Source: a virus (lineage: Duplodnaviria > Heunggongvirae > Uroviricota > Caudoviricetes). Taken from it: a DNA stretch of 42,294 bases. Below the pieces are notes generated by a model. That model was not told where the DNA came from. It made no database searches and saw only the letters and a program-made list of their open reading frames with translations. Each line of letters starts with the position of its first letter. Within the stretch, counting starts at the first letter, position 1. Location of the stretch: the IMG/VR virus record IMGVR_UViG_3300003310_000099, positions 1 to 42,294 of that record. The stretch is one strand, 5' to 3'. Shown piece after piece: positions 16,811-39,929 of this stretch. Position numbers and translations under genes: made by a program.

Positions 16811-16863
16811 TCTTACTACTATATAACATTAACTATTTAACTTTCTTTTTACGGAGAAATACT

Positions 16864-22357: not shown

Positions 22358-22640
22358 AAAAGTGCTTAACTTTCTTGATTCCCCTGATTGGGCTTTGAGT
22401 GTTGATTTAAGCGGTATTGTTTTAAATGTAAATGGGAAGAAACTTAGCATTAGTTTTGAATGTGCCCAATCTATACGTTGGGATAACAGAGCGATTACCG
22501 AAAGTATTGATAAATCAATGTTAAAAGAAATTAGAAAAAAAGGTCAAGCGATATTTAGTATACTCAAAGAAAATCGGCTTACAAGAATTGAAAAAGAACG
22601 CGATGAATTGATCCAAACCGTTTTGAAGGAAATGGGATAA
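22305..22640 (+). CDS. hypothetical protein
   Basis: 111-aa ORF in operon. Confidence 0.5.
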   Translation: MNNIELLGVSVINIELGKKVLNFLDSPDWALSVDLSGIVLNVNGKKLSISFECAQSIRWDNRAITESIDKSMLKEIRKKGQAIFSILKENRLTRIEKERDELIQTVLKEMG

Positions 22641-23467
22641 TGGCACAAGTTAAATGGCTTATTGAACCTGAAATTTTTGAACCTGATGCCCAACCTCTGC
22701 TAGACACTCTTAAAAAAATGGGCGTCGAACATCAAGTGTGGCCGTTTGGTCATATGTATCAGGATTTCAAAAATAAGTTCAGTGATGACTGTGTAGTTTT
22801 CTACGGTAGCTTCCAGTTTGCAAATGTGATTAAAAAACAAACAAGCTGGATTCCTGGCGTATATTGCAATCTGCCTAAATTCGATTGCCTCTATTACTAT
22901 CCACGGCTGGAGAAGTATCTACTAAATTGGAATTATACCATGATGCCTTTAGGGGTTGTTTGCAGTCCTACTAAATCGCATCAATTAAAACATTTTGCAC
23001 CCTTGGATAGCATCTTTATAAGACCATCCAGTGGTGGCAAGTCCTTTACGGGCAAGGTGGTTGATCTAGCCAATCTTGACAAAGAGTTGCGACAATTTGC
23101 GTTAAGGGCAGACCCTGAAACGCTGGTGGTTATTTCTAATCCACAAAGAATTATGCGAGAATGGCGAATGGTGGTGGCTGATAATAAGGTCATTACTGCC
23201 AGCCAGTATAGACACGGCATCCATATGACTCGTTCTAAGGATGTACCAACTGAAGTTACACAATATGCTCAGGATGTATTAAACAATGTTAAATACAATC
23301 CCGATCCTATTTGGACATTGGATATTTGTGAGACAGACGACGGTAGGTTGCACGTTTTAGAAGTTGGGTCATTTTCTTGTGCAGGACTTTATGCATGTGA
23401 CCCAGAAATAATTGTGAACACAGTAAATCAAATTGCTTTAAAAGAATATTTAGAATATCAAAAATGA
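22640..23467 (+). CDS. ATP-grasp domain protein (R2K/DUF4343-like)
   Basis: FIRPSSGGKSFTG, EWRMVV, WTLDI, VLEVGSFSCAGLY. Confidence 0.8.
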   Translation: MAQVKWLIEPEIFEPDAQPLLDTLKKMGVEHQVWPFGHMYQDFKNKFSDDCVVFYGSFQFANVIKKQTSWIPGVYCNLPKFDCLYYYPRLEKYLLNWNYTMMPLGVVCSPTKSHQLKHFAPLDSIFIRPSSGGKSFTGKVVDLANLDKELRQFALRADPETLVVISNPQRIMREWRMVVADNKVITASQYRHGIHMTRSKDVPTEVTQYAQDVLNNVKYNPDPIWTLDICETDDGRLHVLEVGSFSCAGLYACDPEIIVNTVNQIALKEYLEYQK

Positions 23468-24274: not shown

Positions 24275-24303
24275 TTGACAAAATGAAAAAGAGATACTAC
24301 TAT
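24275..24303 (+). promoter_or_regulatory. sigma70-type promoter
   Basis: TTGACA-N17-TACTAT. Confidence 0.6.
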
Positions 24304-24404: not shown

Positions 24405-24524
24405 GGCCAAGTAGCTAAAGAAGATCGCTTTGGTGACTCAGACAAGTGATTGTCTCCAACCCTGAAGCTTACAAGCAATAGTCAGTAAAACTAGAGAATG
24501 TTGGTGCAAATCCAACCTTGGCCG
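24405..24524 (+). ncRNA. module 1 (type B): tRNA-like RNA with Y-like module inserted in the D-loop
   Basis: acceptor GGCCAAG/CTTGGCC; D-stem GCT/AGC; insert GACTCAGACA-agtgat-TGTCTCCAA...GCTTACAAGC; anticodon loop CAGTAAA (GTA, non-canonical A33); T-arm GTTGG-TGCAAAT-CCAAC. Confidence 0.8.
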
Positions 24525-24530
24525 CTAGTA

Positions 24531-24600
24531 GCGTCCCCTAAAGGAAGAACTTACAAACAACAAGGTTATGTTTAAATGATAGTTCTTTAAACTTGGACGC
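24531..24600 (+). ncRNA. module 2 (type A): minimal Y-RNA-like RNA
   Basis: GCGTCC/GGACGC terminal helix, GAAGAAC/GTTCTTT inner helix, TTACAAAC, followed by a T-run. Confidence 0.8.
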
Positions 24601-24611
24601 AACTTTTTTTC

Positions 24612-24660
24612 AAAAAGAACTTGACAAACCTTAAAGACAGTAGTATGATAGGTAAGTCAG
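24612..24660 (+). promoter_or_regulatory. repeated promoter cassette copy 2
   Basis: TTGACA-N17-TATGAT within the same repeat. Confidence 0.8.
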
Positions 24661-24662
24661 GT

Positions 24663-24705
24663 GAGTGGAAGTCCTTAAAGAATGATTATGGACTATGCCA
24701 CACAA
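24663..24705 (+). repeat. 43-nt hairpin repeat copy 1
   Basis: GAGTGGAAGTCCTTAAAGAATGATTATGGACTATGCCACACAA; second copy at 25434. Confidence 0.8.
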
Positions 24706-24757
24706 GGATGGGAAAAGTGCTGAAGACTGTCGTTAGGCAGCGTTCAAGCACAACGCT

Positions 24758-24881
24758 GGGGGATAAAGAAAGCTTTGATGACTTGGACAAGAAATTGTCC
24801 CCAACGGTTTGAGCTTACAAACTTTAAGGTAAAGAAAAGACTTTTAATCTTTTTAAGTGGGTTCAACTCCCACATCCTCCA
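24758..24881 (+). ncRNA. module 3 (type B): tRNA-Lys(TTT) with Y-like module inserted between acceptor stem and D-arm
   Basis: GGGGGAT/ATCCTCC; insert GACTTGGACAA-gaaa-TTGTCCCCAA...GCTTACAAAC; D-arm CTTT-AAGGT-AAAG; AAAGA-CTTTTAA-TCTTT; GTGGG-TTCAACT-CCCAC. Confidence 0.8.
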
Positions 24882-24953
24882 CTAAGGCTTATCACTGAGC
24901 CTGGATTTTGTGTGACGGTCGCCTAGACCCAGAGCAAAACGATCAGTGAACAC

Positions 24954-25064
24954 GGGGTTTAAAAAGGCTTGGAGAACTTAGACAGGAAACTGTCTCCCAC
25001 TTTTTAAGCTTACATACTGGAAAGCAAGGAAACTTGCAAGTTGGTTCGAGTCCAACAAACCCCG
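24954..25064 (+). ncRNA. module 4 (type B): anticodon-less tRNA-like RNA with Y-like insert
   Basis: GGGGTTT/AAACCCC; AACTTAGACAG-gaaa-CTGTCTCCC...GCTTACATAC; GCAAG-GAAA-CTTGC replaces the anticodon arm; GTTGG-TTCGAGT-CCAAC. Confidence 0.8.
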
Positions 25065-25068
25065 CTAA

Positions 25069-25201
25069 CTGTCTCCTATGTTGGGAACTTACAAACATCA
25101 AGTGGGTTCGACTCCCATCAGCAGTTCGCTGCTGTAGCCTAACGGTCAGGCAACTGGCTTTTAACCAGTCTTAAAAAGACGAGTTTTCATGACTTAGACA
25201 G
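25069..25201 (+). ncRNA. module 5 (type A): Y-like stem enclosing a circularly permuted tRNA-Lys(TTT) (YrlA-like order)
   Basis: CTGTCT/AGACAG ends; inside: T-arm GTGGG-TTCGACT-CCCAT, acceptor CAGCAG-TTCG-CTGCTG, D-arm GCCT-AACGGTC-AGGC, ACTGG-CTTTTAA-CCAGT. Confidence 0.85.
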
Positions 25202-25209
25202 TTAATTTT

Positions 25210-25342
25210 GCCAAGGTAGTCTAAAAAACTATTAGTTACAGTGACTTAGACAAGTAATTGTCTCCAATGGTTGTAACTTACAAACAGGTAAGACGTTATC
25301 CTCATAAGGTAAAGTTTGTTGGTTCAAATCCAACCCTTGGCA
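25210..25342 (+). ncRNA. module 6 (type B): tRNA(CAT) with Y-like module inserted in the D-loop
   Basis: GCCAAGG/CCTTGGC; D-stem GTCT/AGAC; insert GTTACA-GTGACTTAGACAA-gtaa-TTGTCTCCAA-tggt-TGTAAC-TTACAAAC; TTATC-CTCATAA-GGTAA; GTTGG-TTCAAAT-CCAAC. Confidence 0.85.
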
Positions 25343-25380
25343 CTGAAAGATTCTTCTTGACAAATAAGAAAACTTTTTTC

Positions 25381-25429
25381 AAAAAGAACTTGACAAACCT
25401 TGAAAACGATGGTAAGATAGGTGAGTCAG
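25381..25429 (+). promoter_or_regulatory. repeated promoter cassette copy 3
   Basis: TTGACA(25390)-N17-TAAGAT. Confidence 0.8.
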
Positions 25430-25433
25430 ATAC

Positions 25434-25476
25434 GAGTGGAAGTCCTTAAAGAATGATTAGGGATTATGCCACACAA
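25434..25476 (+). repeat. 43-nt hairpin repeat copy 2
   Basis: differs from 24663..24705 at two positions. Confidence 0.8.
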
Positions 25477-25503
25477 AGAAGAAAAAGATAGTAGAATGAG
25501 GTT

Positions 25504-25568
25504 GTGGGAGTAGCTCAATGGAGAGCGCCAGTATACTGGAGACGTTGGTTCAAACCCAATCTTCCGCT
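25504..25568 (+). ncRNA. tRNA-like RNA lacking an anticodon loop
   Basis: GTGGGAG/CTTCCGC; GCTC-AATGGA-GAGC; CCAG-TATA-CTGG (4-nt loop); GTTGG-TTCAAAC-CCAAT. Confidence 0.7.
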
Positions 25569-25570
25569 TT

Positions 25571-25697
25571 TGTCTGTCACCGATGTTGAGAACTTACATA
25601 CAATTAGCTCAGTAGATGAGCGTAACTAAGCAGAAGTTAAGGACGTGGGTGCGAATCCCACATTGTTAAAAATCAGTTTTCATGACTTGGACAGACA
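25571..25697 (+). ncRNA. module 7 (type A): Y-like stem enclosing a degenerate tRNA
   Basis: TGTCTGTC/GACAGACA; GAGAAC/GTTTTC; ACTTACATAC; GCTC-AGTAGAT-GAGC; TAACT-AAGCAGA-AGTTA; GTGGG-TGCGAAT-CCCAC; T-run follows. Confidence 0.8.
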
Positions 25698-25716
25698 TTT
25701 TTTTTATATATTGACG

Positions 25717-26208
25717 ATGGGTGTGGATAAAAAGTTTGAGCAGTTAGGTTGTAATTTAGGAAGTGCCGCAATCAAATTGAGAAAGTTAGTTCTTTTTGAT
25801 TTGATTGTTAAGTTTGGTCTAAATAAATGTTATCGGTGCGGTAAAGTGATTGATGCTGTCGATGACTTTACTTTAGATCACAAGATTGATTGGTTAGACT
25901 CGGCTAATCCTGAAGAGTTGTTTTTTGATGTTTCTAATGTAGCTTTTAGTCATGCTCTTTGCAATACATTGGCTAGACGAACGCCAAATAAGGTTAGAGG
26001 TAAAGTAGGTTTTAAGGGTGTTTATTTTGATTCGGGGAGAAAAAAACCTTATAAGGCAGAGTTAGAAACTAAAATCAACGGTGAAAAGAAAGTCTACAGG
26101 TTAGGTAGATTTGGTACAGCAGAAGAAGCAGCTTTGGCTTATGATTTGAAAGCCAAAGAAATTTTAGGAAATCGAGCTATATCAAATCATGATATGGGCT
26201 TGATATGA
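25717..26208 (+). mobile_element. HNH-AP2 (homing-type) endonuclease CDS inserted in the RNA array
   Basis: CYRCG...LDHK...N...SHALCN (HNH with Zn site) followed by GFKGVYFD...RLGRFGTAEEAALAYD (AP2). Confidence 0.85.
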
Positions 26209-26273
26209 GGGGCGGTAGCTTAGCGTTTAAAGCATTAGTCTTATAGACTAAAGATCGAATCCATCCCGCCCCA
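26209..26273 (+). pseudogene. degenerate tRNA (TAT loop) missing the 5' strand of the T-stem
   Basis: GGGGCGG/CCGCCCC; GCTT/AAGC; TTAGT-CTTATAG-ACTAA; then only AGATCGAATCCATC. Confidence 0.65.
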
Positions 26274-26276
26274 CTA

Positions 26277-26607
26277 CACTGTTTCCAACCTTTGGAGCTT
26301 ACAAACTTTGGAGGTTCTAAGGTAGCGAGTTTGCTTGGTTTACGACTTACCCATAGTGGTAAGTGGAGCTTCCAAGCAGCGAATCCAGGTGTAATCGCAA
26401 GATTGCTAATGGATAGTAAGGTGTGAACCTTTCCCGCGATTTCACGGTCAGTCTTCTACGGAAGCCTGAAAAGGTGGTCGAGAGTTAACATAATAGTTGA
26501 CTCACTTGGCGAAAGCCAAGGGCCGATTGGCTTGAGTGTAAACGGATGGGCAACCATCACGCACGACCACAAATAATTGCTCTTATGCTCTGGAAACTTA
26601 GACAGTG
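26277..26607 (+). ncRNA. module 8 (type A): Y-like stem enclosing a ~280-nt structured RNA
   Basis: CACTGTTT/AGACAGTG; GGAGC/GCTCT; CTTACAAAC; internal GNRA hairpins; T-run follows. Confidence 0.75.
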
Positions 26608-26653
26608 TTATTTTTTTAGCTATAGCCCAAGAAAATTGGGTAAGCATAGATCA

Positions 26654-26709
26654 GTTGTCAAAACTTAGAAGGCTCGCCCAACCTTCTCCCATGCGGACAA
26701 CTTACAAAC
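26654..26709 (+). ncRNA. module 9 (type B hairpin, no tRNA flanks recognised)
   Basis: GTTGTC/GACAAC; ACTTAGAAGG...CCTTCTCCC (compensated P1); TTACAAAC. Confidence 0.7.
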
Positions 26710-26786
26710 CAACAAAGATTTAACCTTGGAGAACGAACATGAAGATGGACTATGGTTGACGTAGCAGCTTAGGGTTAGACCCATTT

Positions 26787-26837
26787 GCTGCTAAAACTTA
26801 GACAGGAAACTGTCTCCAAACATAGTAGCTTACAAAC
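26787..26837 (+). ncRNA. module 10 (type B hairpin)
   Basis: GCTGCTA/TAGTAGC; ACTTAGACAG-gaaa-CTGTCTCC; TTACAAAC. Confidence 0.75.
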
Positions 26838-26923
26838 TTGAAGAATAAATCTTAAATTAGGAGTTAACACCATGCGAAAGATGGATAGCGGTTAATCTTG
26901 AAAGTTATCGGGAGTAATTCCCA

Positions 26924-26974
26924 GCTGCTAAAACTTGGATGCGAAAGCGTCCCCAAACTTAGAAGCCTACAAAC
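26924..26974 (+). ncRNA. module 11 (type B hairpin)
   Basis: GCTGCTA...ACTTGGATGC-gaaa-GCGTCCCC...TAGAAGC-CTACAAAC; isolated T-arm GTTGG-TTCAAAT-CCAAC at 27053-27069. Confidence 0.7.
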
Positions 26975-27079
26975 TTTTTAAAGATGCCAAGTGCAAATTG
27001 TTAGAAAAATGCCCATGTAATGTACAATGAGGCGTGAAAAGGTAGTAATGAAGTTGGTTCAAATCCAACACGCGCTAAT

Positions 27080-27200
27080 TTCCGTCCCCTACAAGGTTAG
27101 TTTACAAACATAGCTCATTAGTAGAGCGCAACCATTAGAAGGTTGAAGTAATTGGTGCGAATCCAATTGTTTCTCGATAGCTGACTAAACTTGGACGGAA
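27080..27200 (+). ncRNA. module 12 (type A): Y-like stem enclosing a degenerate tRNA
   Basis: TTCCGTCC/GGACGGAA; TTTACAAAC; GCTC-ATTAGTA-GAGC; CAACC-ATTAGAA-GGTTG; ATTGG-TGCGAAT-CCAAT; 5-bp acceptor AAACA/TGTTT. Confidence 0.8.
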
Positions 27201-27204
27201 CAAT

Positions 27205-27276
27205 GTCGGTGTAGCCAAGCGGTAAGGCATCAGTCTGCAAAGCTGATTACCGTAGGTTCGAATCCTACCGCCGACT
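27205..27276 (+). tRNA. tRNA-Cys(GCA)
   Basis: canonical cloverleaf GTCGGTG/CGCCGAC, TCAGT-CTGCAAA-GCTGA, GTAGG-TTCGAAT-CCTAC, U73 discriminator; CCA not encoded. Confidence 0.92.
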
Positions 27277-27289
27277 TTAAGGTAATATA

Positions 27290-27493
27290 ATGTTAATCTG
27301 CGATAATGGGAATAAGTGTGGGAAGGGTAAAGTGCCATCATGCACTAACCAAGCCATACATATTATCCATACCGTAGATGACAAAGGCAATATAATAGAA
27401 GGGCCAGTCATCAATTTGTGTGATGAACATTTTGATGTGGCAATGCGGTTGGGACTTGTTACTGAGCCGTATATGGGATACGAAGTAACTTGA
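27290..27493 (+). CDS. small hypothetical protein (Cys/His)
   Basis: 67-aa ORF after tRNA-Cys. Confidence 0.45.
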   Translation: MLICDNGNKCGKGKVPSCTNQAIHIIHTVDDKGNIIEGPVINLCDEHFDVAMRLGLVTEPYMGYEVT

Positions 27494-27517
27494 CAATGCG
27501 GAAAATTGTGGTATAGT
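27490..27517 (+). promoter_or_regulatory. sigma70-type promoter for the Ubl-like gene
   Basis: TTGACA-N16-TATAGT. Confidence 0.7.
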
Positions 27518-27550
27518 AAGAGTGGAGACGACAAAGAGGAGGAAGGGAAA

Positions 27551-27784
27551 ATGGAAAATCAAGTAATTGACGCAGTACCTCAGATTCACATTCGCTACGA
27601 CGGTCGTAGCATTGACATTCCTTTGAGCGAAGTAGACGTTGGTGTTCTGTCTACGGACGAACAGATTCGTGCTGCTGTCGCTGAGAACCTTGGTGTGCCA
27701 GTCGGAAAGCTTCGCGCTTTCGCCATCGACCGCAACCAAGAGACGAATCACCTGACCCTTCGTCCAGAAGCGGTTTGGGGTTGA
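27551..27784 (+). CDS. putative ubiquitin-like (beta-grasp) small protein ending in Gly (...LRPEAVWG)
   Basis: 77 aa from ATG 27551 with purine-rich SD; beta-beta-alpha-beta-beta pattern (IHIRY-SIDIP-helix DEQIRAAVAENL-FAID-LTLR); C-terminal Gly. Confidence 0.6.
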   Translation: MENQVIDAVPQIHIRYDGRSIDIPLSEVDVGVLSTDEQIRAAVAENLGVPVGKLRAFAIDRNQETNHLTLRPEAVWG

Positions 27785-27870
27785 AATTTTTGATCCCCAG
27801 GCATGGGGCTGACTTGGTGGGGAGTTATGAAAAGAATTGCCAAGTGATAATTAGGAACCATGCCAAATTT

Positions 27871-28001
27871 GCGGGAGTAGCTGAATAGTAAATAGTTTTT
27901 TATACTTAGACGGGCTAAACTCCGTCTCCGACTTGAAAAACTTACAAACAAGCGTCAGTATTCTAAACTGAAGTATGTGGGTGCGACTCCCACCTCCCGC
28001 T
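27871..28001 (+). ncRNA. module 13 (type B): tRNA-Arg(TCT)-like RNA with Y-like module in the D-loop
   Basis: GCGGGAG/CTCCCGC; GCT/AGC; AGTTTTT/AAAAACT; ACTTAGACGG...CCGTCTCC; CTTACAAAC; TCAGT-ATTCTAA-ACTGA; GTGGG-TGCGACT-CCCAC. Confidence 0.8.
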
Positions 28002-28002
28002 C

Positions 28003-28186
28003 TTTTTCCTGATAGTGCCAGCACCGACCCCGAAATGTTACCAAACAGGGGTGGTAAACGGCGGGTAACACCGCTAGTCCCTTTGACCGCTCAAGAGTTG
28101 GCTGATTACTCTTCGGAGGAAAAACAGCTTTTGGGCAACAACCCTGTTCCTCAACATAAAGTGTTGGGGTGGCCGTTCAGGAAAAA
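28003..28186 (+). ncRNA. unidentified structured RNA
   Basis: 10-bp closing stem TTTTTCCTGA/TCAGGAAAAA; hairpins; TGTTAC/GTAACA loop-loop complementarity. Confidence 0.55.
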
Positions 28187-28187
28187 T

Positions 28188-28254
28188 TCCGTCTCCTAAA
28201 AAGGAAGCTTACAAACTAGCCAATGTTTAACACAGCTTCCTAAACTAAGACGGA
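28188..28254 (+). ncRNA. module 14 (type A): minimal Y-RNA-like RNA
   Basis: TCCGTCT/AGACGGA; AGGAAGCT/AGCTTCCT; CTTACAAAC; T-rich tail. Confidence 0.8.
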
Positions 28255-28277
28255 TTTATTTTTATTTTAAGTGACTT

Positions 28278-28405
28278 GTTTTGTCCCCAATGTTGAGAAC
28301 TTACAAACAATTTGCTCAACGGTAGAGCATCAACCTCCAAAGTTGAAAGTGTTGGTTCAAATCCAGCATTGTTTACCAAAACAGTTTTCAAGACTTGGAC
28401 GAAAC
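28278..28405 (+). ncRNA. module 15 (type A): Y-like stem enclosing an intact tRNA-Trp
   Basis: GTTTTGTCC/GGACGAAAC; GAGAAC/GTTTTC; ACTTACAAAC overlaps the tRNA 5' end. Confidence 0.85.
28305..28378 (+). tRNA. tRNA-Trp(CCA) with encoded CCA end, nested in module 15
   Basis: AAACAAT/ATTGTTT-A-CCA; GCTC-AACGGTA-GAGC; TCAAC-CTCCAAA-GTTGA; GTTGG-TTCAAAT-CCAGC. Confidence 0.8.
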
Positions 28406-28409
28406 GAGA

Positions 28410-28501
28410 TGGCTAGTAGCTTAACGGTAAAGCACTTGCTAAGTCGGGCGTTAAAACCTGACCTGTAAGAAGAAGTAGGGTTCAACTCCCTGCCTGGCCA
28501 C
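28410..28501 (+). ncRNA. tRNA-like RNA with extended anticodon arm
   Basis: TGGCTAG/CTGGCCA; GCTT-AACGGTA-AAGC; CTTGC/GTAAG plus internal loop plus GTCGGG-CGTTAAAA-CCTGAC; TAGGG-TTCAACT-CCCTG. Confidence 0.7.
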
Positions 28502-28503
28502 TT

Positions 28504-28574
28504 TCTGTCCCCTATAGGTAAAACTTACAAACATTACCAATGACGATGCTAAAAGTTTTACAAACTTGGACAGA
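28504..28574 (+). ncRNA. module 16 (type A): minimal Y-RNA-like RNA
   Basis: TCTGTCC/GGACAGA; GTAAAACT/AGTTTTAC; CTTACAAAC. Confidence 0.8.
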
Positions 28575-28592
28575 CTAATATTCAAGAAAATT

Positions 28593-28660
28593 TCCGTCCC
28601 CTATAAGAAGAACTTACAAACACTCAATTATCGTTTAACAGTTCTTTTGACTTGGACGGA
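28593..28660 (+). ncRNA. module 17 (type A): minimal Y-RNA-like RNA
   Basis: TCCGTCC/GGACGGA; GAAGAAC/GTTCTTT; CTTACAAAC; T-run follows. Confidence 0.8.
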
Positions 28661-28680
28661 TTTTTTATTTGCACAGCAAC

Positions 28681-28708
28681 TTGACAGACGCCAAATTTGT
28701 AGTATCAT
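28681..28708 (+). promoter_or_regulatory. sigma70-type promoter for the TROVE gene
   Basis: TTGACA-N16-TATCAT. Confidence 0.7.
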
Positions 28709-28825
28709 GTATGAGTGACAGAAAATGCGAAATATGCAATGAGCCAGCATCATGTTGGTATTATTGCAGTGAGCATCATAGAAGTATTTGTGTAGATGGT
28801 AATAGTCCAAGAGAAGTGAGAGAAA

Positions 28826-28850
28826 AACTAGGACAGGAAACTGTCCCCAA
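28826..28850 (+). promoter_or_regulatory. P1-type hairpin of the array module adjacent to the TROVE SD
   Basis: AACTAGGACAG-gaaa-CTGTCCCCAA then c-AAGGAG-N8-ATG. Confidence 0.7.
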
Positions 28851-28865
28851 CAAGGAGAATTGAAA

Positions 28866-30368
28866 ATGGCTAATACTGAAATTGATACCCGTCTCAACAT
28901 CCTTAACACCCTGTTGACCACTCCTCACTGTAAGCTGGATCAGGTTTACCCGATTCACGCTGAGATGATTAAGCAAGACCCGTTATTCTACGGTCGTTTG
29001 GGTGCATGGTACAATGACACTGGTGACGTTCGTGACCACAAGGAAATGTTCGTCATCAACATGTGCCTGAGTGACTTTGAAGGCCACCGTGACGCTGGAT
29101 TGGCAATGCTGCGTGAAATGCCACCGTACCAGCTTGGCCGTGTCGTAGACTTCATCCACGGTCGTAAGGACACTAAGAAGTCCAAGGCCAAGAAGGGTGA
29201 AACTCCAACCACGACGGTTGAAAACTACGGTTTGTTCAAGAACATTCCGCGTTCCGTCAAGACGGAAGTGGTTCGTTATCTCCGTGAACGTGAAGCGGAA
29301 CCAGAGTGGTTCGATTCTTGCGCCGTCACTGCGCGTAAGTATTTGAAGCGTCTCTATGCTCTCATGCACATTAGCCCAAATGAGCGTGCGCAGAAGATTC
29401 TCTTTGAAGATTTGCCGCCAGAAGATTCCAAGCTGTTCGCAGTGAAGGAACTCTTCAAGGCGAAGACGCCAGCGGAACAGGCCAAGACGATCATGGCGCA
29501 CAAGATTCCGTACCGTATCGCTTCGACGGTCGTTTCTGCCATGACTCCGACCGTACTCTTGGCTTTGATTGAAGTTATGTCGGATATGGAGTTAATCAAT
29601 AACCTTGGTTCTCTCCGTAAGCGTGGTGCATTTGAGAATCCAGACCTCAAGGCACTCATTGAGAAGAAGCTTGAGAAGGCCAAGTCTGGTAAGCGTGTTT
29701 CGGCACTCAAGGCAACTGAAGCCGTTAAGTCGGCTGGTGTTGATGATGCTACGGTCAAGCAACTGGAAGCGGTTGCTGACTCGCAGTTGAAGAAGAAGGG
29801 CCGTATCAATCGCTCTACTGCACTGCTGATTGATAAGTCTGGCTCCATGAGTCAGGCTATCGAATTGGGCAAGCAGATTGGTTCGATGATTTCTGCTATC
29901 ATGGATGCAGATTTGTATGTATACGCTTTCGACACGATGGCGTATCCCCTCAAGGCACAGGGCACCGACCTTGCTTCCTGGGACAAGGCATTGCGTGGTA
30001 TCAACGCTGGGGGTGGAACCTCTTGCGGTGTGCCTCTTGAGTACATGATTCGCAACAAGCAGCTTGCGGAGAACATTATCGTCATCACGGACGAAGGCGA
30101 AAACGGTACTCCTGCATTCGTGCCGACCCTGAAGAAGTACATGGCTGAACTCAAGGCAACCCCTTCTGTCTGCTTTGTAAAGACTACGGGTGCATCGAAT
30201 CAGCTTGAACAGCAGATGCAGCGTGAAGGACTGAACTGTGACGCCTGGCAGTTCAGTGGGGATTACTACAGTCTGCCCAACTTGATCCCCTACCTGTCCA
30301 AGCCATCGAAGGTCGATCTTCTGATGGAAATCATGTGTTACGAAATGCCTGTCCGCAAGACGGCATAA
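28866..30368 (+). CDS. Ro60-like TROVE + vWA domain RNA-binding protein
   Basis: N-terminal helical region (QDPLFYGRL...DVRDHKE; MSDMELINNLGSL resembling the Ro60 MPxxALLRNLG motif) and C-terminal vWA MIDAS (LLIDKSGSM, GGGTSCG, VITDEGEN); SD AAGGAG; biased codon usage (CGT, AAG). Confidence 0.75.
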   Translation: MANTEIDTRLNILNTLLTTPHCKLDQVYPIHAEMIKQDPLFYGRLGAWYNDTGDVRDHKEMFVINMCLSDFEGHRDAGLAMLREMPPYQLGRVVDFIHGRKDTKKSKAKKGETPTTTVENYGLFKNIPRSVKTEVVRYLREREAEPEWFDSCAVTARKYLKRLYALMHISPNERAQKILFEDLPPEDSKLFAVKELFKAKTPAEQAKTIMAHKIPYRIASTVVSAMTPTVLLALIEVMSDMELINNLGSLRKRGAFENPDLKALIEKKLEKAKSGKRVSALKATEAVKSAGVDDATVKQLEAVADSQLKKKGRINRSTALLIDKSGSMSQAIELGKQIGSMISAIMDADLYVYAFDTMAYPLKAQGTDLASWDKALRGINAGGGTSCGVPLEYMIRNKQLAENIIVITDEGENGTPAFVPTLKKYMAELKATPSVCFVKTTGASNQLEQQMQREGLNCDAWQFSGDYYSLPNLIPYLSKPSKVDLLMEIMCYEMPVRKTA

Positions 30369-30971: not shown

Positions 30972-31445
30972 ATGAAAATGACCAAGACTATTCAACTATT
31001 AGAAGACCAGTTGAAAGGCATAAGAAGATCATCCATCAGTCCTGGTTTTATCGAAACCTTGAAAGTTCCTTACTACGGGCAGATGACTCCCATTCGTTTT
31101 GTGGGGACCGTAGGCAGGTGTCAGGCTGGCATTACTATAACACCGCATGACCCGAACTTGGTGAACAGTATTGCTAAGTCGTTACAAGAGGATAATTTGC
31201 TGAACGCTTATGCGTTCTCAAAAACAACAGTTGTGGTAAGTGTCCCACCTGCTAACACAGGTGAGATTGAAAGAATAAAGTCGCATATCAGGAAATTAGG
31301 CGAAGATGCCAAGATTTCTATCAGGAATTTAAGGAAAAGTGTAAGACAAAATTTGTCCAAGGAAGAACAAAAAGAAATAGATAAGGATTTGCAACTTTTG
31401 ACAGAGGAACATTGCAATAAAATTGAGGATATTATCAATGACTAA
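30972..31445 (+). CDS. frr: ribosome recycling factor homolog
   Basis: LKGIRRSSISPGFIETLKVPYYG...VSVPP...AKISIRNLR...LQLLTEEH pattern of RRF. Confidence 0.85.
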   Translation: MKMTKTIQLLEDQLKGIRRSSISPGFIETLKVPYYGQMTPIRFVGTVGRCQAGITITPHDPNLVNSIAKSLQEDNLLNAYAFSKTTVVVSVPPANTGEIERIKSHIRKLGEDAKISIRNLRKSVRQNLSKEEQKEIDKDLQLLTEEHCNKIEDIIND

Positions 31446-34473: not shown

Positions 34474-35415
34474 ATGAACGTTTTTGACAAACTTGCGGCA
34501 GAAGAAGCGGCTTTTTTCAATTCACAATTGTTTTCTCCTGTTATTAAGGGGAAGCCGATCAGGGTCCGTATTTCTGGTGTTATTGTGACTTTGAGCGTCA
34601 CCAAGCCTAAGAATTTTGAAGGCTGGGGCGTCTTTGCACCTTCATCTGCCAAGACCGCCAAGTTTGTCCGTGAACCAAACATGACTGAGAAGCAGAGTTA
34701 TTTTAACCTGTTTCCATCTTTAAGGCTGATTCTGTGCCGCCGTACTAATGACCAATGGTTTGGTATTCCTGCCAACCAATCTGATAACAGGTTCAAGATT
34801 ACTGGTACTGTACCTATCAATCTTTGTACAGAAGTGCAGATGTTTGATATGGTACAGGTGCGTTTTGATGGCACCAATATCTGGTTTGAACAAATTGATC
34901 CAAGGCACAGTTTGAAAGCTGCGGCCTATCTGCGTGAATCCGTTATCAAGTTTCTTGATGCAGCCAAGCTTGAGCTTCCAGGCTTGACAATTGAGGAACG
35001 TGATGCGTATTTGATTGCTTTGAACGACGCATTAGCAGCAGATGCCGAAGCCCGCCGTGACAAGCAAGAAGAACGTATTCAGAAGGCATTGGCATTGACT
35101 GGAGCTAAGTACCAAAGTTATATTGAGCGTGGCGACACGTTTACCATTGAGTACATGGTCGGTCGTGAGCGTCACCGTTCTGTAGTCAAGAAGGATAATT
35201 TGGCTGTAGAATCAGCTGGTATCTGTTTGGCAGGTACTGATAGGAACTTTGACCTTCAAAGTTTGGTTGGTGTTATCAGGGAAGGTCAGCGTGGCCGTAG
35301 GATTGTTCGTGTTGGCGATAACCGTCAATTCGGCAATCCTAATGAATATGGTTACGAACAAGAGGATTACAACCGCCAATTAGACGGTGGCGGCTATGAT
35401 GAGGATGATTACTAA
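34474..35415 (+). CDS. conserved-looking hypothetical protein
   Basis: 313 aa; SD GGAG; same codon bias as the TROVE gene. Confidence 0.7.
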   Translation: MNVFDKLAAEEAAFFNSQLFSPVIKGKPIRVRISGVIVTLSVTKPKNFEGWGVFAPSSAKTAKFVREPNMTEKQSYFNLFPSLRLILCRRTNDQWFGIPANQSDNRFKITGTVPINLCTEVQMFDMVQVRFDGTNIWFEQIDPRHSLKAAAYLRESVIKFLDAAKLELPGLTIEERDAYLIALNDALAADAEARRDKQEERIQKALALTGAKYQSYIERGDTFTIEYMVGRERHRSVVKKDNLAVESAGICLAGTDRNFDLQSLVGVIREGQRGRRIVRVGDNRQFGNPNEYGYEQEDYNRQLDGGGYDEDDY

Positions 35416-35738
35416 TGAGAATCTGTGATATCATCAAACCCAATATACCTTGCCGCTTGGAACACCCCATTGTTGGTGAGGTATATTGGGGCATCAAGGA
35501 CGGTTGTTGGGGTTTGTATTTTGCCAAGGGTTATGATGCTCATAAATTCCTTGTCGCTGATGATGCCGTTTTAATGAGTGATGAATGGAAGCAAACAAAC
35601 AAGTTAAGCTCTGAAGACTTGGCTGGACTTATCGCTGACGCACTCATTCCCAAGTTCTTTATGAAGGAATGGTACGCTAAGGCGGTTAAAGTTATTGCTG
35701 AGGAAATTGACGCTAGAAAGGCAATGGGTGACTACTAA
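35415..35738 (+). CDS. hypothetical protein
   Basis: TAATG overlap. Confidence 0.6.
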   Translation: MRICDIIKPNIPCRLEHPIVGEVYWGIKDGCWGLYFAKGYDAHKFLVADDAVLMSDEWKQTNKLSSEDLAGLIADALIPKFFMKEWYAKAVKVIAEEIDARKAMGDY

Positions 35739-36430
35739 TGATGAATGAACAGTGTTGGGTTTTGGTTGGGGGAATTAATGGCGACCTTTGGTGGGGTGAG
35801 AAGTTTGGTCCTCAACATGAAGGTACGCCTGCCAGTGTTGCTTTTGACCCAGACTTTGTAACTAAGCGTGAAGAGGAACATGGTGATGTGGTAGGATTTA
35901 TCCACACTCACCCAAGTTTTACTGCGCATTATAGTATGCGTGATGATCGCACCATGAAGGCTTGGGTTTTATCTTTGGGTAAGCCTCTTGTCTGTTGTAT
36001 TATTGGCACGGATGGGCTGCGCGCATTTTGGTACAACAATGACGAAGACCCGCCAACTGAGGAAACAGTTCACTCTCTTCGTGGTGCGATCTTTGGGCTT
36101 ACACCACCAGAAGATTTTGAGCCTGAAAAAGATGATTTTTCAGATTTGATTATTGATGAACCACCACCTAGTCTGGGTGTAAACCAGCTTGTAAAGGTTA
36201 TTGCTGGTAAACATCAAGGGGTAGAAGGTAGAGTACAGTTTTATCAGACTGAAGGTGAAGGCGGGAGAATAAGGGTACGTCTTGCTGATGGTAGCCAAAT
36301 CTATGTTGATAAAGAAGATATAGATTTTAAGTTTGAGTATATCGACGCAGAGGTAATGATGGATGAAGAGGAACGTGAAGCTTTCCATCAGCAAATCAAG
36401 GAAATAAAAGAAGGTGAATATTTATCATGA
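35738..36430 (+). CDS. JAB/MPN+ (JAMM) metalloprotease with C-terminal KOW-like domain
   Basis: VVGFIHTHPSFTAHYSMRD = HxH-x7-S-x2-D; LVKVIAGKHQGVEGRV (KOW). Confidence 0.8.
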   Translation: MMNEQCWVLVGGINGDLWWGEKFGPQHEGTPASVAFDPDFVTKREEEHGDVVGFIHTHPSFTAHYSMRDDRTMKAWVLSLGKPLVCCIIGTDGLRAFWYNNDEDPPTEETVHSLRGAIFGLTPPEDFEPEKDDFSDLIIDEPPPSLGVNQLVKVIAGKHQGVEGRVQFYQTEGEGGRIRVRLADGSQIYVDKEDIDFKFEYIDAEVMMDEEEREAFHQQIKEIKEGEYLS

Positions 36431-39197: not shown

Positions 39198-39234
39198 GAA
39201 GTATTTAGTGAAATGCACGAAAAAATGGATGAAG

Positions 39235-39262
39235 TTGACAAAGTGGGAAAAAGTAGTATAGT
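39235..39262 (+). promoter_or_regulatory. sigma70-type promoter for the E1/ThiF gene
   Basis: TTGACA-N16-TATAGT. Confidence 0.7.
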
Positions 39263-39281
39263 AAGCATCATGGAGGGCAAA

Positions 39282-39929
39282 ATGGCAAATAGCAAGTTCC
39301 ATCACGAAGAGATTTATCGCGGCAAGAATCTTGCAGAAAGACTTGCTGTGCCCATTACGGTATGTGGTGCAGGTTCTATTGGCAGTAATCTTGTTGACAA
39401 CCTGACTCGTCAAGGGTTCAGCAAACTCACTGTTATTGACATGGACCGTGTTGAAGTCCATAATCTCAATACTCAGATTTATGCTGAGGCCGATGTTGGT
39501 GCGCTCAAGGTGGATGCACTCAAGAACCGTATTTTCCGTAATATTGGCGTTGAAATTGAAGCAGTAAACAAGGAAATGACTGCCGCAAATGTAAAGCAAT
39601 TATTAAAGAAGGCAAGTGTTGTCGTTGATTGTTTTGATAACAACAAGGCGCGTCAATTGGTTCAAACTTTCGTAAGGGAGAAGCGTACTTCTTGTTTACA
39701 CGTTGGTTTGAATGGGGATTATGGGGAAGTTATCTGGGACGAAAAGTACCGTGTGCCCAAGGACCAGACTGACGGTGATGTTTGTGATTATCCACTTGCT
39801 CGCAATATCGCAATGTTGGCTGTTATTGTTGCAACTGAAGAACTTTTGAGTTTCCAATTGGAGCAGCCGCCAAGGTTATCTAATTGGAGCATTACTCTCA
39901 AGGATTTGGCGATCAAGAAATTTTCTTGA
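39282..39929 (+). CDS. ThiF/MoeB/E1-like adenylating enzyme
   Basis: CGAGSIG, IDMDRVEVHNLNTQ, KVDAL, VVDCFDN; Cys in GDVCDYP; start at ATG 39282 after GGAGG. Confidence 0.9.
   Translation: MANSKFHHEEIYRGKNLAERLAVPITVCGAGSIGSNLVDNLTRQGFSKLTVIDMDRVEVHNLNTQIYAEADVGALKVDALKNRIFRNIGVEIEAVNKEMTAANVKQLLKKASVVVDCFDNNKARQLVQTFVREKRTSCLHVGLNGDYGEVIWDEKYRVPKDQTDGDVCDYPLARNIAMLAVIVATEELLSFQLEQPPRLSNWSITLKDLAIKKFS

What the first reader, a model, noticed from the sequence alone, without database searches (positions are those of the whole stretch)
24405..30368. Array of 17 Y-RNA-like modules directly upstream of a Ro60-like TROVE-vWA gene
Seen in sequence: 17 copies of one module lie between 24405 and 28660. 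Each has helix P1 (GTC[T/C]CC paired with ACTT[A/G]GAC, extended by copy-specific, compensated base pairs), a second helix P2 with different but complementary sequences in each copy, and an unpaired (C/T)TTACAAAC. Nine copies have P1 open at the RNA ends (type A, often followed by T-runs) and eight have P1 closed by a loop (type B). The array ends about 200 nt before a TROVE+vWA gene. Established: Ro60/Rsr proteins (TROVE+vWA) bind Y RNAs through a stem with a bulged C (metazoan 5'-GUCCGA / ACUUGAC-3'). Bacterial Y RNA genes lie next to rsr, usually as one or two copies, and YrlA carries a tRNA-like domain. Inference: this phage encodes an expanded family of Ro-binding RNAs in which one docking module delivers many different RNA cargos to one protein. 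Possible roles are tRNA repair or protection, decoying host anticodon nucleases, or steering RNA decay. I do not know of a described array like this.
Basis: partly seen in the sequence, partly recalled or inferred. Interest (0 to 1): 0.96.

Follow-up and report, generated by a model that had tools for sequence, protein, structure and literature searches.

The report
Phage array of Ro60-docking Y-like RNAs
A huge phage carries 17 small RNA genes that share one folded "handle" but hold different, mostly tRNA-shaped, bodies; they sit beside a very divergent Ro60-type RNA-binding ring protein, and the same handle-plus-protein pairing (with a ubiquitin-like enzyme set) recurs in other huge phages and many bacteria and is not in Rfam or any paper I could search.

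Summary
All 17 modules lie at 24423-28661 on the + strand, and nowhere else in the 373-kb genome. Chance gives none in 100 shuffles.

- **RNA fold:** both helices covary, in the window's copies and in 65 copies from bacteria and distant phages that were not used to build the model.
only GUCY pairs with RGAC. CC(N)A and ACUU form a conserved 4x4 internal loop, so there is no bulged C.
- **Protein:** the gene at 28866-30368 has the Ro60 fold and an intact MIDAS site, but no Pfam TROVE match.
- **Distribution:** my covariance models find the handle on the gene's strand beside its homologues in 11 phage loci and at least 45 of 80 bacterial loci. Arrays are therefore typical of the clade; 17 is the largest seen.
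- **Link to Y RNAs:** bacterial units have YrlA architecture, but Rfam YrlA matches only the tRNA-like head, below threshold.
- **Wider context:** the locus belongs to a conserved cassette of a Ubl candidate, the RNAs, the Ro60-like protein, an OB-fold Cys protein, JAB and E1.

Binding and expression are untested. This scan has noted the cassette and similar multi-copy Y-like RNAs on other DNA before.

The parts
24405..24523 (+). Unit 1, type B: handle hairpin 24423-24476 (variant CTCAGAC/GTCTCC, loop GTGA) inside a tRNA-shaped body with acceptor GGCCAAG/CTTGGCC and a T arm
   Evidence: Fold; R1 57 bits; ARAGORN calls tRNA-Tyr(gta) only after the handle is removed in silico
24529..24602 (+). 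Unit 2, type A minimal (no cargo), followed by a T-run
   Evidence: Fold; R2 77 bits
24757..24884 (+). Unit 3, type B: handle 24768-24822 (GAAA loop) inside a tRNA-Lys(UUU)-like body
   Evidence: weak Rfam tmRNA/tRNA hits
24953..25064 (+). Unit 4, type B: handle 24963-25017 inside a body with acceptor stem and T arm, and a GAAA-capped hairpin where the anticodon arm would be
   Evidence: no tRNA call after removal
25067..25203 (+). Unit 5, type A: cargo is a circularly permuted tRNA mimic (T arm, acceptor closed by UUCG, D arm, anticodon-like arm CUUUUAA)
   Evidence: Fold; Rfam YrlA 26 bits on 25102-25151, below the gathering score of 69; R2 36 bits
25209..25343 (+). Unit 6, type B: handle 25231-25285 (GUAA loop) between the D arm and the anticodon arm of a tRNA(CAU) body
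   Evidence: ARAGORN calls tRNA-Met(cat) in 99 deletion variants and none in the intact unit
25572..25696 (+). Unit 7, type A (GTCACC variant): cargo is a tRNA-like RNA at 25598-25669; T-run follows
26277..26607 (+). Unit 8, type A (GTTTCC variant): about 280 nt of unidentified structured cargo; T-run follows
   Evidence: Fold; no Rfam match; the cargo core is 85% identical to L002 5815-5933
26650..26709 (+). Unit 9, type B with a variant P1 (AGAAGG/CCTTCT) and a 9-nt loop
   Evidence: R1 48 bits
26783..26837 (+). Unit 10, type B (GAAA loop), not in a recognisable tRNA body
   Evidence: R1 70 bits
26920..26974 (+). Unit 11, type B (GGAU/GUCC, GAAA loop); a T-arm minihelix follows at about 27032-27085
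   Evidence: R1 64 bits
27080..27200 (+). Unit 12, type A: the handle is formed by the leader and trailer of tRNA-Leu(UAG), 27104-27175
   Evidence: R2 49 bits
27551..27784 (+). 77-aa candidate ubiquitin-like protein ending RPEAVWG, with its own promoter (27490), inside the array
   Evidence: tblastn finds homologues in 64 of 99 loci; the ...T.RPEAV(F/W)G-stop ending is invariant. No family or PDB sequence match, so the fold is inferred
27871..27998 (+). Unit 13, type B: handle 27891-27949 inside a tRNA-Arg(UCU) body
   Evidence: ARAGORN calls tRNA-Arg(tct) in 115 deletion variants and none in the intact unit
28187..28255 (+). Unit 14, type A minimal (ACTAAGAC variant); T-run follows
28279..28404 (+). 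Unit 15, type A: the handle encloses a complete tRNA-Trp(CCA), 28305-28378, with encoded CCA
28503..28575 (+). Unit 16, type A minimal
28592..28661 (+). Unit 17, type A minimal; T-run follows
   Evidence: R2 81 bits
28827..28851 (+). P1-only hairpin (GGACAG-GAAA-CUGUCC, then CC) ending 1 nt before the Shine-Dalgarno sequence of the Ro60-like gene; a candidate autoregulatory site
   Evidence: R1 partial hit of 26 bits. Equivalent hits lie just before the gene in L002 (8954-8978) and L003 (7955-8008). It is absent in the more distant loci
28866..30368 (+). Ro60-like ring + vWA protein (about 500 aa from the likely ATG at 28866; all analyses used the 502-aa reading from the in-frame TTG at 28860) with an intact MIDAS site (DxSxS 325-329, T387, D411)
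   Evidence: AF2 pLDDT 83.5. The top 13 Foldseek PDB hits are all Ro60/Rsr/phiLo Ro60, full length, TM 0.56-0.66, E down to 1e-11. PDB profile E 1.5e-4. No Pfam TROVE match
34474..35415 (+). X305: cassette partner with N-terminal S1/OB-like barrels, a long helix and a C-terminal domain with an invariant AGICL cysteine (Cys251)
   Evidence: Found in 65 of 99 loci; alignment A5; AF2 pLDDT 84.7; weak S1/CSD/exosome-cap fold matches; predicted complex with the Ro60-like protein
35738..36430 (+). Prok-JAB peptidase of the cassette
   Evidence: Pfam E 8e-8; synteny
39213..39929 (+). ThiF/E1-like adenylating enzyme of the cassette
   Evidence: Pfam E 7e-31; synteny

Best explanation
The 17 units are a family of Y-RNA-like adaptor RNAs.

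Each has a constant handle. It consists of helix P1, a conserved 4x4 internal loop (CC.A opposite ACUU), helix P2 and the unpaired word UUACAAAC. I infer that this handle docks to the neighbouring Ro60-like ring protein, which is itself predicted to hold the OB-fold cysteine protein X305.

Each unit also has a variable head:
- nothing (units 2, 14, 16, 17);
- a full tRNA held by its leader and trailer (12, 15, and the decayed 7);
- a circularly permuted tRNA mimic as in YrlA (5);
- a tRNA body into which the handle is inserted between the D region and the anticodon arm (1, 3, 6, 13, and 4 in part);
- a 280-nt structured RNA (8);
- other contexts (9-11).

The RNAs are made from at least six promoter-led units. 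Several end in a P1 stem plus U-run, which resembles an intrinsic terminator.

By analogy with Rsr/YrlA, the handle tethers the ring and the head recruits or sequesters tRNA-binding factors during infection. The RNP works within a conserved cassette with a small Ubl candidate, an E1-like enzyme and a JAB peptidase.

Shown here: the RNA fold, the protein fold, the co-occurrence and the cassette. Inferred: docking, expression and the biological role.
For: - **The module is real:** 15 pattern hits against 0 expected. It occurs only in the array within the whole genome.
- **Covariation:** shown in the window and close relatives. It also holds in 65 copies not used for training: P1 is 98.5% paired, all 7 P1 pairs show compensatory changes, 86% of cells pair against 29-43% when slid, and 0/500 shuffles reach this.
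- **Ro60 fold:**. MIDAS residues are invariant.
- **Co-occurrence:** across the loci searches all but four of about 276 handle hits are on the + strand, the gene's strand. The four minus-strand hits are two reverse reads of minimal units that also hit on the + strand and two at E about 1. The + strand hits lie mostly within 2 kb upstream of the gene, in 11 phage loci (55-94% protein identity) and at least 45 of 80 bacterial loci. In five bacterial genomes of 7.5-16 Mb, 4 of 5 R2 hits lie at the Ro-like locus.
- **YrlA layout:** bacterial units run handle, T arm, closed acceptor, D arm, handle. Rfam YrlA matches their heads at 35-38 bits, E 6e-5 to 4e-4.
- **Possible operator:** a P1-only hairpin abuts the gene's Shine-Dalgarno sequence in three phages.
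- **Cassette:** synteny.
- **Predicted complex, Ro60-like with X305:** score 0.62, best of 3 controls 0.00. That mark was reached by 58 of 80 solved complexes and 2 of 110 mismatched pairs. The runs agree in at least 79% of contacts and the partner's pLDDT is at least 76.
- **Precedents:** Thermus phage phiLo Ro60 binds two adjacent Y-like RNAs (PMC12135203). The Ro60-fold gp130 of phage Bas63 lies upstream of tRNA genes and counters a defence system (PMC11482910).
Against:
- The handle lacks the known Ro60 determinants, both GGUCCGA with a bulged C and GNCGAAN0-1G. It fails the Rfam Y_RNA and YrlA thresholds.
- The protein lacks a Pfam TROVE match.
- The cassette holds a second candidate RNA binder, X305 with OB/S1-like barrels.
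- One bacterial handle lies far from any cassette gene.
- Cassette loci with 41-50% protein identity (L013-L017) give no hit with my models.
- Synteny among related phages is not independent evidence.
Confidence: 0.65

Rival explanations
1. The handle is the docking site of another cassette protein, most likely the OB/S1-like X305, or of a host factor. The Ro60-like ring would then engage the RNAs elsewhere, for example by threading 3' tails or misfolded heads, or not at all.
For: X305 has tandem S1/CSD-like barrels. It co-occurs with the handle as tightly as the Ro-like gene does. The handle lacks canonical Ro60 motifs.
Against: The terminal stem plus tRNA-like head is the YrlA/Rsr layout. 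X305 is predicted to sit on the Ro-like HEAT repeats, so the two readings may merge into one RNP.
Confidence: 0.17
2. The handle is a processing or maturation element of phage tRNA transcripts. It would be a leader-trailer stem around tRNAs (type A) and an intron-like insert in tRNA bodies (type B), cut out by a nuclease to release working tRNAs. Adjacency to the Ro-like gene would reflect shared tRNA-cluster synteny.
For: Units 12 and 15 enclose full tRNAs. Removing the handle in silico restores ARAGORN tRNA calls in units 1, 3, 6 and 13. The array is interleaved with ordinary tRNA and tRNA-like genes.
Against: Four units carry no cargo and have their own terminators. Unit 5 and most bacterial units have a closed acceptor stem that cannot yield a tRNA. 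The handle tracks the Ro-like gene in bacteria even where no tRNA array is present. No bulge-helix-bulge or group I features were seen.
Confidence: 0.1
3. The units are decayed duplicates of one ancestral RNA gene, with no present function.
For: Some units are close paralogues: 5, 7 and 15 share P2 sequence. Several cargos look degenerate.
Against: Compensatory changes maintain both helices across phages and bacteria. The loop words are conserved at 55% protein identity. Promoters and terminators are kept.
Confidence: 0.03

Closest known systems
Bacterial Rsr (Ro60) with YrlA/YrlB Y RNAs (Chen et al. 2014, PMC4201824; Rfam RF02553; structure in bioRxiv 10.1101/312249)
   Same: RNA genes lie next to a Ro60-fold gene. 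The design is modular: a terminal protein-binding stem plus a tRNA-like head. Unit 5 and most bacterial relatives have the YrlA order of T arm, closed acceptor and D arm. A few copies per locus are known for YrlA.
   Different: The handle has a different sequence and shape: no GNCGAA motif, a 4x4 CC.A/ACUU loop and UUACAAAC. Scores fall below the Rfam threshold. There are 17 copies. A second, permuted topology places the handle inside an open-ended tRNA body. Some heads are full tRNAs, some are empty, and one is a 280-nt RNA. The protein is too divergent for Pfam TROVE. The locus is linked to Ubl/E1/JAB genes rather than RtcB/RtcA.
Metazoan Ro60-Y RNA (PDB 1YVP; conserved helix GGUCCGA / UUGACC with a bulged C)
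   Same: The 3' strand word ACUU-(R)-GAC is nearly that of animal Y RNAs, and the 5' strand starts GUCC. The ends pair, and several units end in a U-run.
   Different: The extra C/U is paired and covaries, so it is not bulged. In bacteria the P1 sequence is free (GUAC, GCGC and others), and only the loop words are conserved. The likeness in the phage may therefore be a coincidence of P1 sequence.
Thermus phage phiLo Ro60 with Yrl1/Yrl2 (PMC12135203; PDB 9KOP, 9L5Y)
   Same: It is a phage-encoded Ro60 with Y-like RNAs directly upstream. It is also the closest solved relative by sequence (E 4e-5).
   Different: phiLo has two RNAs with the CGAA motif, no tRNA bodies and no Ubl cassette reported.
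Phage Bas63 gp130 (PhageMaP preprint, PMC11482910)
   Same: It is a Ro60-fold phage protein directly upstream of a run of tRNA genes. The authors suggest that some of those genes are Y RNAs. It gives a functional lead, because gp130 counters a host defence system (ppl).
   Different: There is no detectable sequence relation: tblastn of the window's protein against the phage collection (50,697 phage records downloaded from GenBank) at E <= 1e-5 matched only LR756511.1. The RNAs were not defined.
E2-less Ubl systems tied to tRNA (Thermus TtuB/TtuC with a JAMM peptidase; archaeal SAMP/UbaA; Urm1/Uba4) - recalled from my own knowledge, partly via PMC2948915 and PMC5349211 listed
   Same: They combine a small protein ending in Gly, a ThiF-type E1 and a JAB peptidase, and are functionally linked to tRNA.
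   Different: The cassette has no PP-loop thiolase. The Ubl candidate has no detectable sequence similarity to ThiS/MoaD. The partner is a Ro60-like RNP.

Membership tests
YrlA (Rfam RF02553) | Score at or above the Rfam gathering threshold (69 bits) | tested here: not met
   The best score in the window is 26 bits, on the head of unit 5 only. Bacterial relatives score 35-38 bits on heads only, model positions 23-87
YrlA (Rfam RF02553) | 5' Ro-binding motif GNCGAAN0-1G (Chen et al. 2014) | tested here: not met
   No handle contains it. There are two incidental matches in the array region, one in the HNH ORF and one in the cargo of unit 8
YrlA (Rfam RF02553) | tRNA-like head in the order T arm, closed acceptor stem-loop, D arm | tested here: met
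   Met by unit 5 and by most bacterial units, but not by the other 16 window units
YrlA (Rfam RF02553) | Encoded within a few kb of a Ro60 orthologue | tested here: met
   with the caveat that the protein is a distant Ro60 homologue
Metazoan-type Y RNA (Rfam RF00019) | Conserved helix with a bulged C (GGUCCGA/UUGACC); Rfam match | tested here: not met
   No Rfam hit even at E up to 10. The corresponding C/U is base-paired and covaries
Ro60/Rsr (TROVE + vWA_Ro60) | Ring of HEAT-like repeats closed by a vWA domain | tested here: met
   Foldseek gives full-length matches to 13 Ro60/Rsr chains, TM 0.56-0.66, for a model with pLDDT 83.5
Ro60/Rsr (TROVE + vWA_Ro60) | Pfam TROVE (PF05731) and vWA_Ro60 (PF25045) above their cut-offs | tested here: not met
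   There is no TROVE hit, and vWA_Ro60 scores 22.4 bits against a cut-off of 27.7. NCBIfam gives nothing
Ro60/Rsr (TROVE + vWA_Ro60) | MIDAS motif in the vWA domain | tested here: met
   D325, S327, S329, T387 and D411 are invariant in 34 sequences
Ro60/Rsr (TROVE + vWA_Ro60) | Binds Y RNA or misfolded RNA | not testable with these tools
   Needs EMSA, CLIP or a structure
Prokaryotic Ubl-E1-JAB systems | ThiF-type E1, JAB peptidase and a small protein ending in Gly, in one conserved neighbourhood | tested here: met
   Pfam ThiF and Prok-JAB. Synteny in 62 loci (ThiF), 41 (JAB) and 64 (small protein) of 99. C-terminal Gly is invariant
Prokaryotic Ubl-E1-JAB systems | Beta-grasp fold of the small protein | not tested

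The most novel reading that the evidence does not exclude
The handle is a portable address tag of an undescribed RNP machine. A Ro60-like ring and an OB-fold cysteine protein would read the tag. A dedicated Ubl/E1/JAB trio would then act on the particle or on the tRNA-shaped head itself. For example, the E1-activated C-terminal Gly of the Ubl could be passed to the RNA 3' end or to a captured tRNA-binding enzyme. Huge phages would expand the tag onto many tRNA bodies (Lys-UUU, Tyr-GUA, Arg-UCU, Met-CAU, Leu-UAG, Trp-CCA) as decoys or traps for host anticodon nucleases and other tRNA-directed defences.
Probability: 0.2. Interest if true: 0.95.

Novelty: new variant of a known kind. Interest (0 to 1): 0.82.

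Why it matters
Ro60/Y RNA particles are conserved from bacteria to humans, yet their logic (what the handle reads, what the head recruits) is still poorly understood, and most bacterial Ro60 genes have only one or two known Y RNAs.

- **A natural experiment:** one handle is combined with at least six kinds of head, in two circularly permuted topologies. This shows directly that handle and head are separable modules.
- **A search tool:** the covariance models find this RNA class in huge phages and in many bacterial genomes from several phyla (mostly Planctomycetota, also Chloroflexota and others), where the protein is annotated only as hypothetical.
- **A new link:** the constant association with a ubiquitin-like protein, an E1 and a JAB peptidase suggests an unexplored connection between RNA surveillance and protein tagging.
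- **A testable role:** the choice of tRNA bodies makes an anti-defence role (decoys for tRNA-cleaving systems) directly testable.

Tried and rejected
- **Rfam:** searches at the gathering threshold and at E up to 10 find only tRNA-like hits, one weak YrlA hit and one weak tmRNA hit in the array, and nothing for the handle or the cargo of unit 8.
- **Phage collection:** megablast of the locus finds nothing. tblastn of the protein finds only LR756511.1.
- **IMG/VR scan:** the exact 5'-half pattern hits 21 contigs. The 3-7-copy hits lie in contigs already known as relatives. I searched 17 of the singletons with R1 and R2. Only L110 gave a clear hit (R2, 45 bits), two gave weak R1 hits (E 0.003-0.008), and the rest look like chance.
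- **Minus-strand hit:** the loose-pattern hit near window 36212 is spurious.
- **Intron or processing reading:** considered and kept only as a minor rival (see rival explanations).
- **Known RNA motifs:** I saw no kink-turn or loop-E motif in the internal loop (no tandem G·A). This was judged by eye only.
- **Family libraries:** PADLOC, NCBIfam and Pfam give no family for the Ubl candidate, the Ro60-like protein or X305.
- **Ubl candidate:** its profile against PDB sequences gives nothing significant.
- **More distant cassette loci:** L013-L017 (41-50% identity) give no hit with R1 or R2, so their RNAs, if any, use another handle.
- **Literature:** six searches found no description of this handle, of such arrays, or of a Ro60-Ubl cassette. 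The supplements of Chen et al. 2014 are not held, so I could not check whether any Planctomycete Y RNAs were listed there.

Full report
**Source.** The window is the first 42 kb of a 373-kb IMG/VR virus record (41% G+C, 98% complete by CheckV), that is, a huge phage.

**Observation.** Reading the sequence and pattern scans recover exactly 17 5' halves and 17 3' halves.
- The 5' half is GUCYCC, 11 nt, then YUUACAAAC, with variants GTCACC, GTTTCC and TTCTCC.
- The 3' half is AG-Y-U, about 8 nt, then ACUURGAC.
- All lie on the + strand between 24423 and 28661.
- With up to 1 mismatch the 5' pattern occurs 15 times, against 0 in each of 100 shuffles.
- A looser form of the 5' half finds no further real copy in the 373-kb genome. 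It gives 15 + strand hits, all in the array, and one minus-strand hit near window 36212 that lacks the handle. Model R2 hits only the array.
- Nine units have the 5' half first, with cargo between the halves (type A).
- Eight have the 3' half first, with the two P1 strands joined by a short loop (type B). The loop is a GNRA tetraloop in six of them: GAAA in 3, 4, 10 and 11, GUAA in 6 and GUGA in 1.

**Structure.** The halves align in register without gaps. P1 is GUCY paired with RGAC plus 2-8 copy-specific extension pairs. The Y:R pair covaries (U-A 9, C-G 7 among 16 type B hairpins).

Next comes a conserved internal loop: 5' C-C-N-A opposite 3' A-C-U-U. After it come P2 (about 7-9 bp, closing pairs A-U, R-Y, C-G) and then unpaired UUACAAAC.

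| Alignment | Sequences | Cells paired | Partner slid by 1-3 | Shuffles reaching this |
|---|---|---|---|---|
| A2, type B, window + L002 + L003 | 16 | 88% | 33-49% | 0/500 |
| A3, minimal type A | 10 | 86.5% | 27-45% | 0/500 |
| A4, type B hits from 11 sources (the window and 10 phage loci) | 39 | 87% | 36-50% | 0/500 |
| A7, type A hits from bacteria and distant phages, none used in training | 65 | 86% | 29-43% | 0/500 |

In A4, 12 of 15 pairs show compensatory changes. In A7, P1 is 98.5% paired and all 7 P1 pairs show compensatory changes; one pair, for example, reads AU 27, CG 20, GC 16. A4 and A7 were fitted to the model, which favours it, but the slid controls share that bias.

**Heads.**
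- **Empty:** units 2, 14, 16 and 17 are minimal, about 70 nt, with a 20-30-nt loop in which AAAC can pair with GUUU.
- **Full tRNAs:** units 12 and 15 enclose tRNA-Leu(UAG) and tRNA-Trp(CCA, with encoded CCA). The 5' acceptor strand starts inside UUACAAAC. Unit 7 holds a decayed tRNA.
- **Permuted mimic:** unit 5 holds a circularly permuted tRNA mimic (T arm, acceptor closed by UUCG, D arm, anticodon-like arm). It gives the only YrlA hit in the window, 26 bits.
- **Large RNA:** unit 8 holds about 280 nt of unidentified structured RNA, partly conserved in L002.
- **tRNA bodies carrying the handle:** type B units 1, 3, 4, 6 and 13 sit inside RNAs with an open acceptor stem and a T arm. ARAGORN finds no tRNA in the intact units. 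When the handle is deleted in silico it calls tRNA-Tyr(gta), Lys(ttt), Met(cat) and Arg(tct) for units 1, 3, 6 and 13. In these four the handle is therefore inserted between the D region and the anticodon arm of a tRNA body.
- **Other contexts:** units 9-11 are hairpins in non-tRNA surroundings.

**Transcription signals.** Perfect TTGACA -35 boxes with good -10 boxes lie on the + strand at 24275, 24361, 24621, 25390, 27490 and 28681. T-runs follow type A units 2, 7, 8, 14 and 17. The array thus looks like several short operons whose last unit doubles as a terminator.

**The protein.** The likely start is ATG 28866, with a Shine-Dalgarno sequence at 28852-28857, which gives about 500 aa. All analyses used the 502-aa reading from the in-frame TTG at 28860.
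- Pfam gives only a sub-threshold vWA_Ro60 hit and no TROVE hit.
- Against PDB sequences it matches Thermus phage phiLo Ro60 at E 4e-5 and human Ro60 weakly. A 34-sequence profile gives human Ro60 at E 1.5e-4 and Rsr at E 0.02.
- The AlphaFold model (pLDDT 83.5) matches full-length Ro60, Rsr and phiLo Ro60 as its top 13 PDB hits (TM 0.56-0.66, E to 1e-11). Plain vWA domains come far behind.
- The MIDAS residues are invariant.
- It is a true but very divergent Ro60-fold protein.

**Distribution.** The family is large: more than 2,900 proteins of about 500 aa. The species are mostly Planctomycetota, with some Chloroflexota, Armatimonadota and Deltaproteobacteria, and several loci lie on multi-Mb contigs.

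With R1 (type B hairpin) and R2 (minimal type A):
- All but four of the handle hits are on the gene's strand. The four minus-strand hits are two reverse reads of minimal units that also hit on the + strand and two at E about 1. The + strand hits lie mostly within 2 kb upstream of the gene.
- Hits occur in 11 phage loci (55-94% protein identity; roughly 13+ units in L002, 8 in L003, 7 in L004, 8-11 in L009, 3-6 in others).
- Hits occur in at least 45 of 80 bacterial loci (91 R2 and 74 R1 hits), often several per locus.
- In five whole bacterial genomes of 7.5-16 Mb, 4 of 5 R2 hits fall at the Ro-like locus. The fifth is a genuine handle around a tRNA-like RNA with no cassette gene within 8 kb. 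That scan scored only 150 candidates per genome, so it is a partial test.

In bacteria the P1 sequence is free (GUAC/GUAC, GCGC/GCGC, GUGC/GCAC), while CC.A, ACUU and UUACAAAC persist. These words, not the GUC/GAC helix, are the likely recognition elements.

Bacterial units mostly carry T arm, long closed acceptor and D arm. Rfam YrlA matches exactly these heads at 35-38 bits (model positions 23-87) and not the terminal stem. This ties the class to Y RNAs by architecture while showing that the handle is different.

**Context found on the way.** In bacterial contigs the Ro-like gene is followed by a 305-aa unknown protein, a Prok-JAB and a ThiF/E1, and is preceded by an 82-aa ORF. tblastn with these proteins finds the same set in most loci, and in all phage loci but two (L014 and the truncated L018; L017 lacks only JAB). 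Counts out of 99 loci: X305 65, small protein 64, ThiF 62, JAB 41.

In the window the set is:
- small protein, 27551-27784, inside the array;
- X305, 34474-35415;
- JAB, 35738-36430;
- ThiF, 39213-39929.

The small protein always ends ...T.RPEAV(F/W)G-stop. It has no detectable family, so "ubiquitin-like" is an inference from size, terminal Gly and its partners.

X305 has no family. Its model (pLDDT 84.7) shows N-terminal beta-barrels weakly resembling S1/CSD/exosome-cap domains, a long helix, and a C-terminal sheet bearing an invariant AGICL cysteine.

A complex prediction of the Ro60-like protein with X305 passed:
- score 0.62, best of 3 controls 0.00;
- that mark was reached by 58 of 80 solved complexes and 2 of 110 mismatched pairs;
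- the runs agree in at least 79% of contacts, and the partner's pLDDT is at least 76;
- the interface joins Ro residues 203-266 with X305 residues 3-12, 32-39 and 59-60.

This supports binding but does not show it. No similar solved complex is known to me.

**A P1-only hairpin.** It lies at 28827-28851, flanked by the loop words, and ends 1 nt before the Ro-like gene's Shine-Dalgarno sequence. Equivalent elements precede the gene in L002 and L003 but not in more distant loci. It is a candidate autoregulatory operator, limited to this subgroup.

**Interpretation.** The best reading (0.65) is a family of Y-RNA-like adaptors. The constant handle docks the Ro60-like ring, probably as a complex with X305. 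The variable, mostly tRNA-shaped heads recruit or sequester tRNA-binding factors. The Ubl/E1/JAB trio acts on or regulates the particle.

Known precedents are the Rsr/YrlA tether model, phiLo Ro60 binding two upstream Y-like RNAs (PMC12135203), and the Ro60-fold gp130 of phage Bas63, which lies upstream of tRNA genes and counters a defence system (PMC11482910).

From my own knowledge, the anticodons of the tRNA bodies (Lys UUU, Tyr GUA, Arg UCU, Met CAU, Leu UAG, Trp CCA) overlap the known targets of anticodon nucleases. This makes a decoy or protection role attractive, but it is only a lead.

Rivals are that the handle is read by X305 or a host factor (0.17), that it is a tRNA processing element (0.10), or that the units are functionless duplicates (0.03).

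**Comparison and novelty.** The class works like YrlA-type Y RNAs but fails YrlA membership on score and on the Ro-binding motif. The protein fails Pfam TROVE. I file it as a new variant of a known kind: a divergent Ro60 clade with its own handle.

Its special features are large arrays (17 here, the largest I saw), two circularly permuted topologies, heads ranging from nothing to full tRNAs, and a constant link to a Ubl/E1/JAB/OB-Cys set.

Six literature searches found no description. Chen et al. report 355 YrlAs in 254 bacteria and 22 phages, that is, one or two per genome.

This scan's own earlier notes record the same cassette and similar multi-copy Y-like RNA families on other DNA. I reached the cassette independently from bacterial synteny and treat those notes as leads, not as support.

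Noticed in passing
window 25719-26208: An HNH + AP2 ORF, of the homing-endonuclease type, sits inside the RNA array between unit 7 and a tRNA-like gene (Pfam AP2 E 3e-8, HNH E 2e-3).
   Followed up: no
window 30972-31445: A phage-encoded ribosome recycling factor homologue (Pfam RRF E 1e-23) lies two genes downstream of the Ro60-like gene.
   Followed up: no
window 25504-25568, 26209-26273, 28411-28500: Stand-alone tRNA-like genes with altered arms: a 4-nt loop in place of the anticodon loop, a shortened T arm, and a long insert. Rfam tRNA scores are 29-50 bits, and ARAGORN does not call them. Each lies directly 5' of a type A unit.
   Followed up: partly
window 24650-24710 and 25420-25480: A conserved leader of about 55 nt with a hairpin (GUGGAAGUCC...GGACU...CCAC) follows two of the three copies of a repeated promoter segment (24361, 24621, 25390). 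It may be another small RNA element.
   Followed up: no
window 27995-28190: A stretch of about 190 nt between units 13 and 14 is richer in G+C. Its 3' part is 84% identical to L002 8155-8212. No Rfam match; identity unknown.
   Followed up: partly
window 27290-27493 and 28712-28863: Two small Cys-rich ORFs (CxxC pairs, zinc-ribbon-like) lie inside and at the end of the array. The second starts almost at its promoter's +1 and overlaps the P1-only hairpin.
   Followed up: no
L054 5614-5696 (Armatimonadota MAG, beside its Ro-like gene): An 83-nt piece matching 23S rRNA positions 1077-1160, the L11/GTPase-associated centre, at 54 bits lies among the tRNA and handle units. It may be an rRNA-fragment head.
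   Followed up: no
L080 700-3520 and L054 4620-5830: Bacterial Ro-like loci lie directly beside arrays of 12-18 ordinary tRNA genes.
   Followed up: no
G001:C1:103527-103644 (L100 8528-8645, minus strand): An orphan handle around a tRNA-like RNA in an Aeoliella MAG has no cassette gene within 8 kb. Handle RNAs can therefore be encoded away from the protein.
   Followed up: partly
window 15851-17343 and 22640-23467: Amidoligase_2, a sigma-70-like factor and an R2K ATP-grasp gene lie upstream of the array. This is typical huge-phage accessory content.
   Followed up: no
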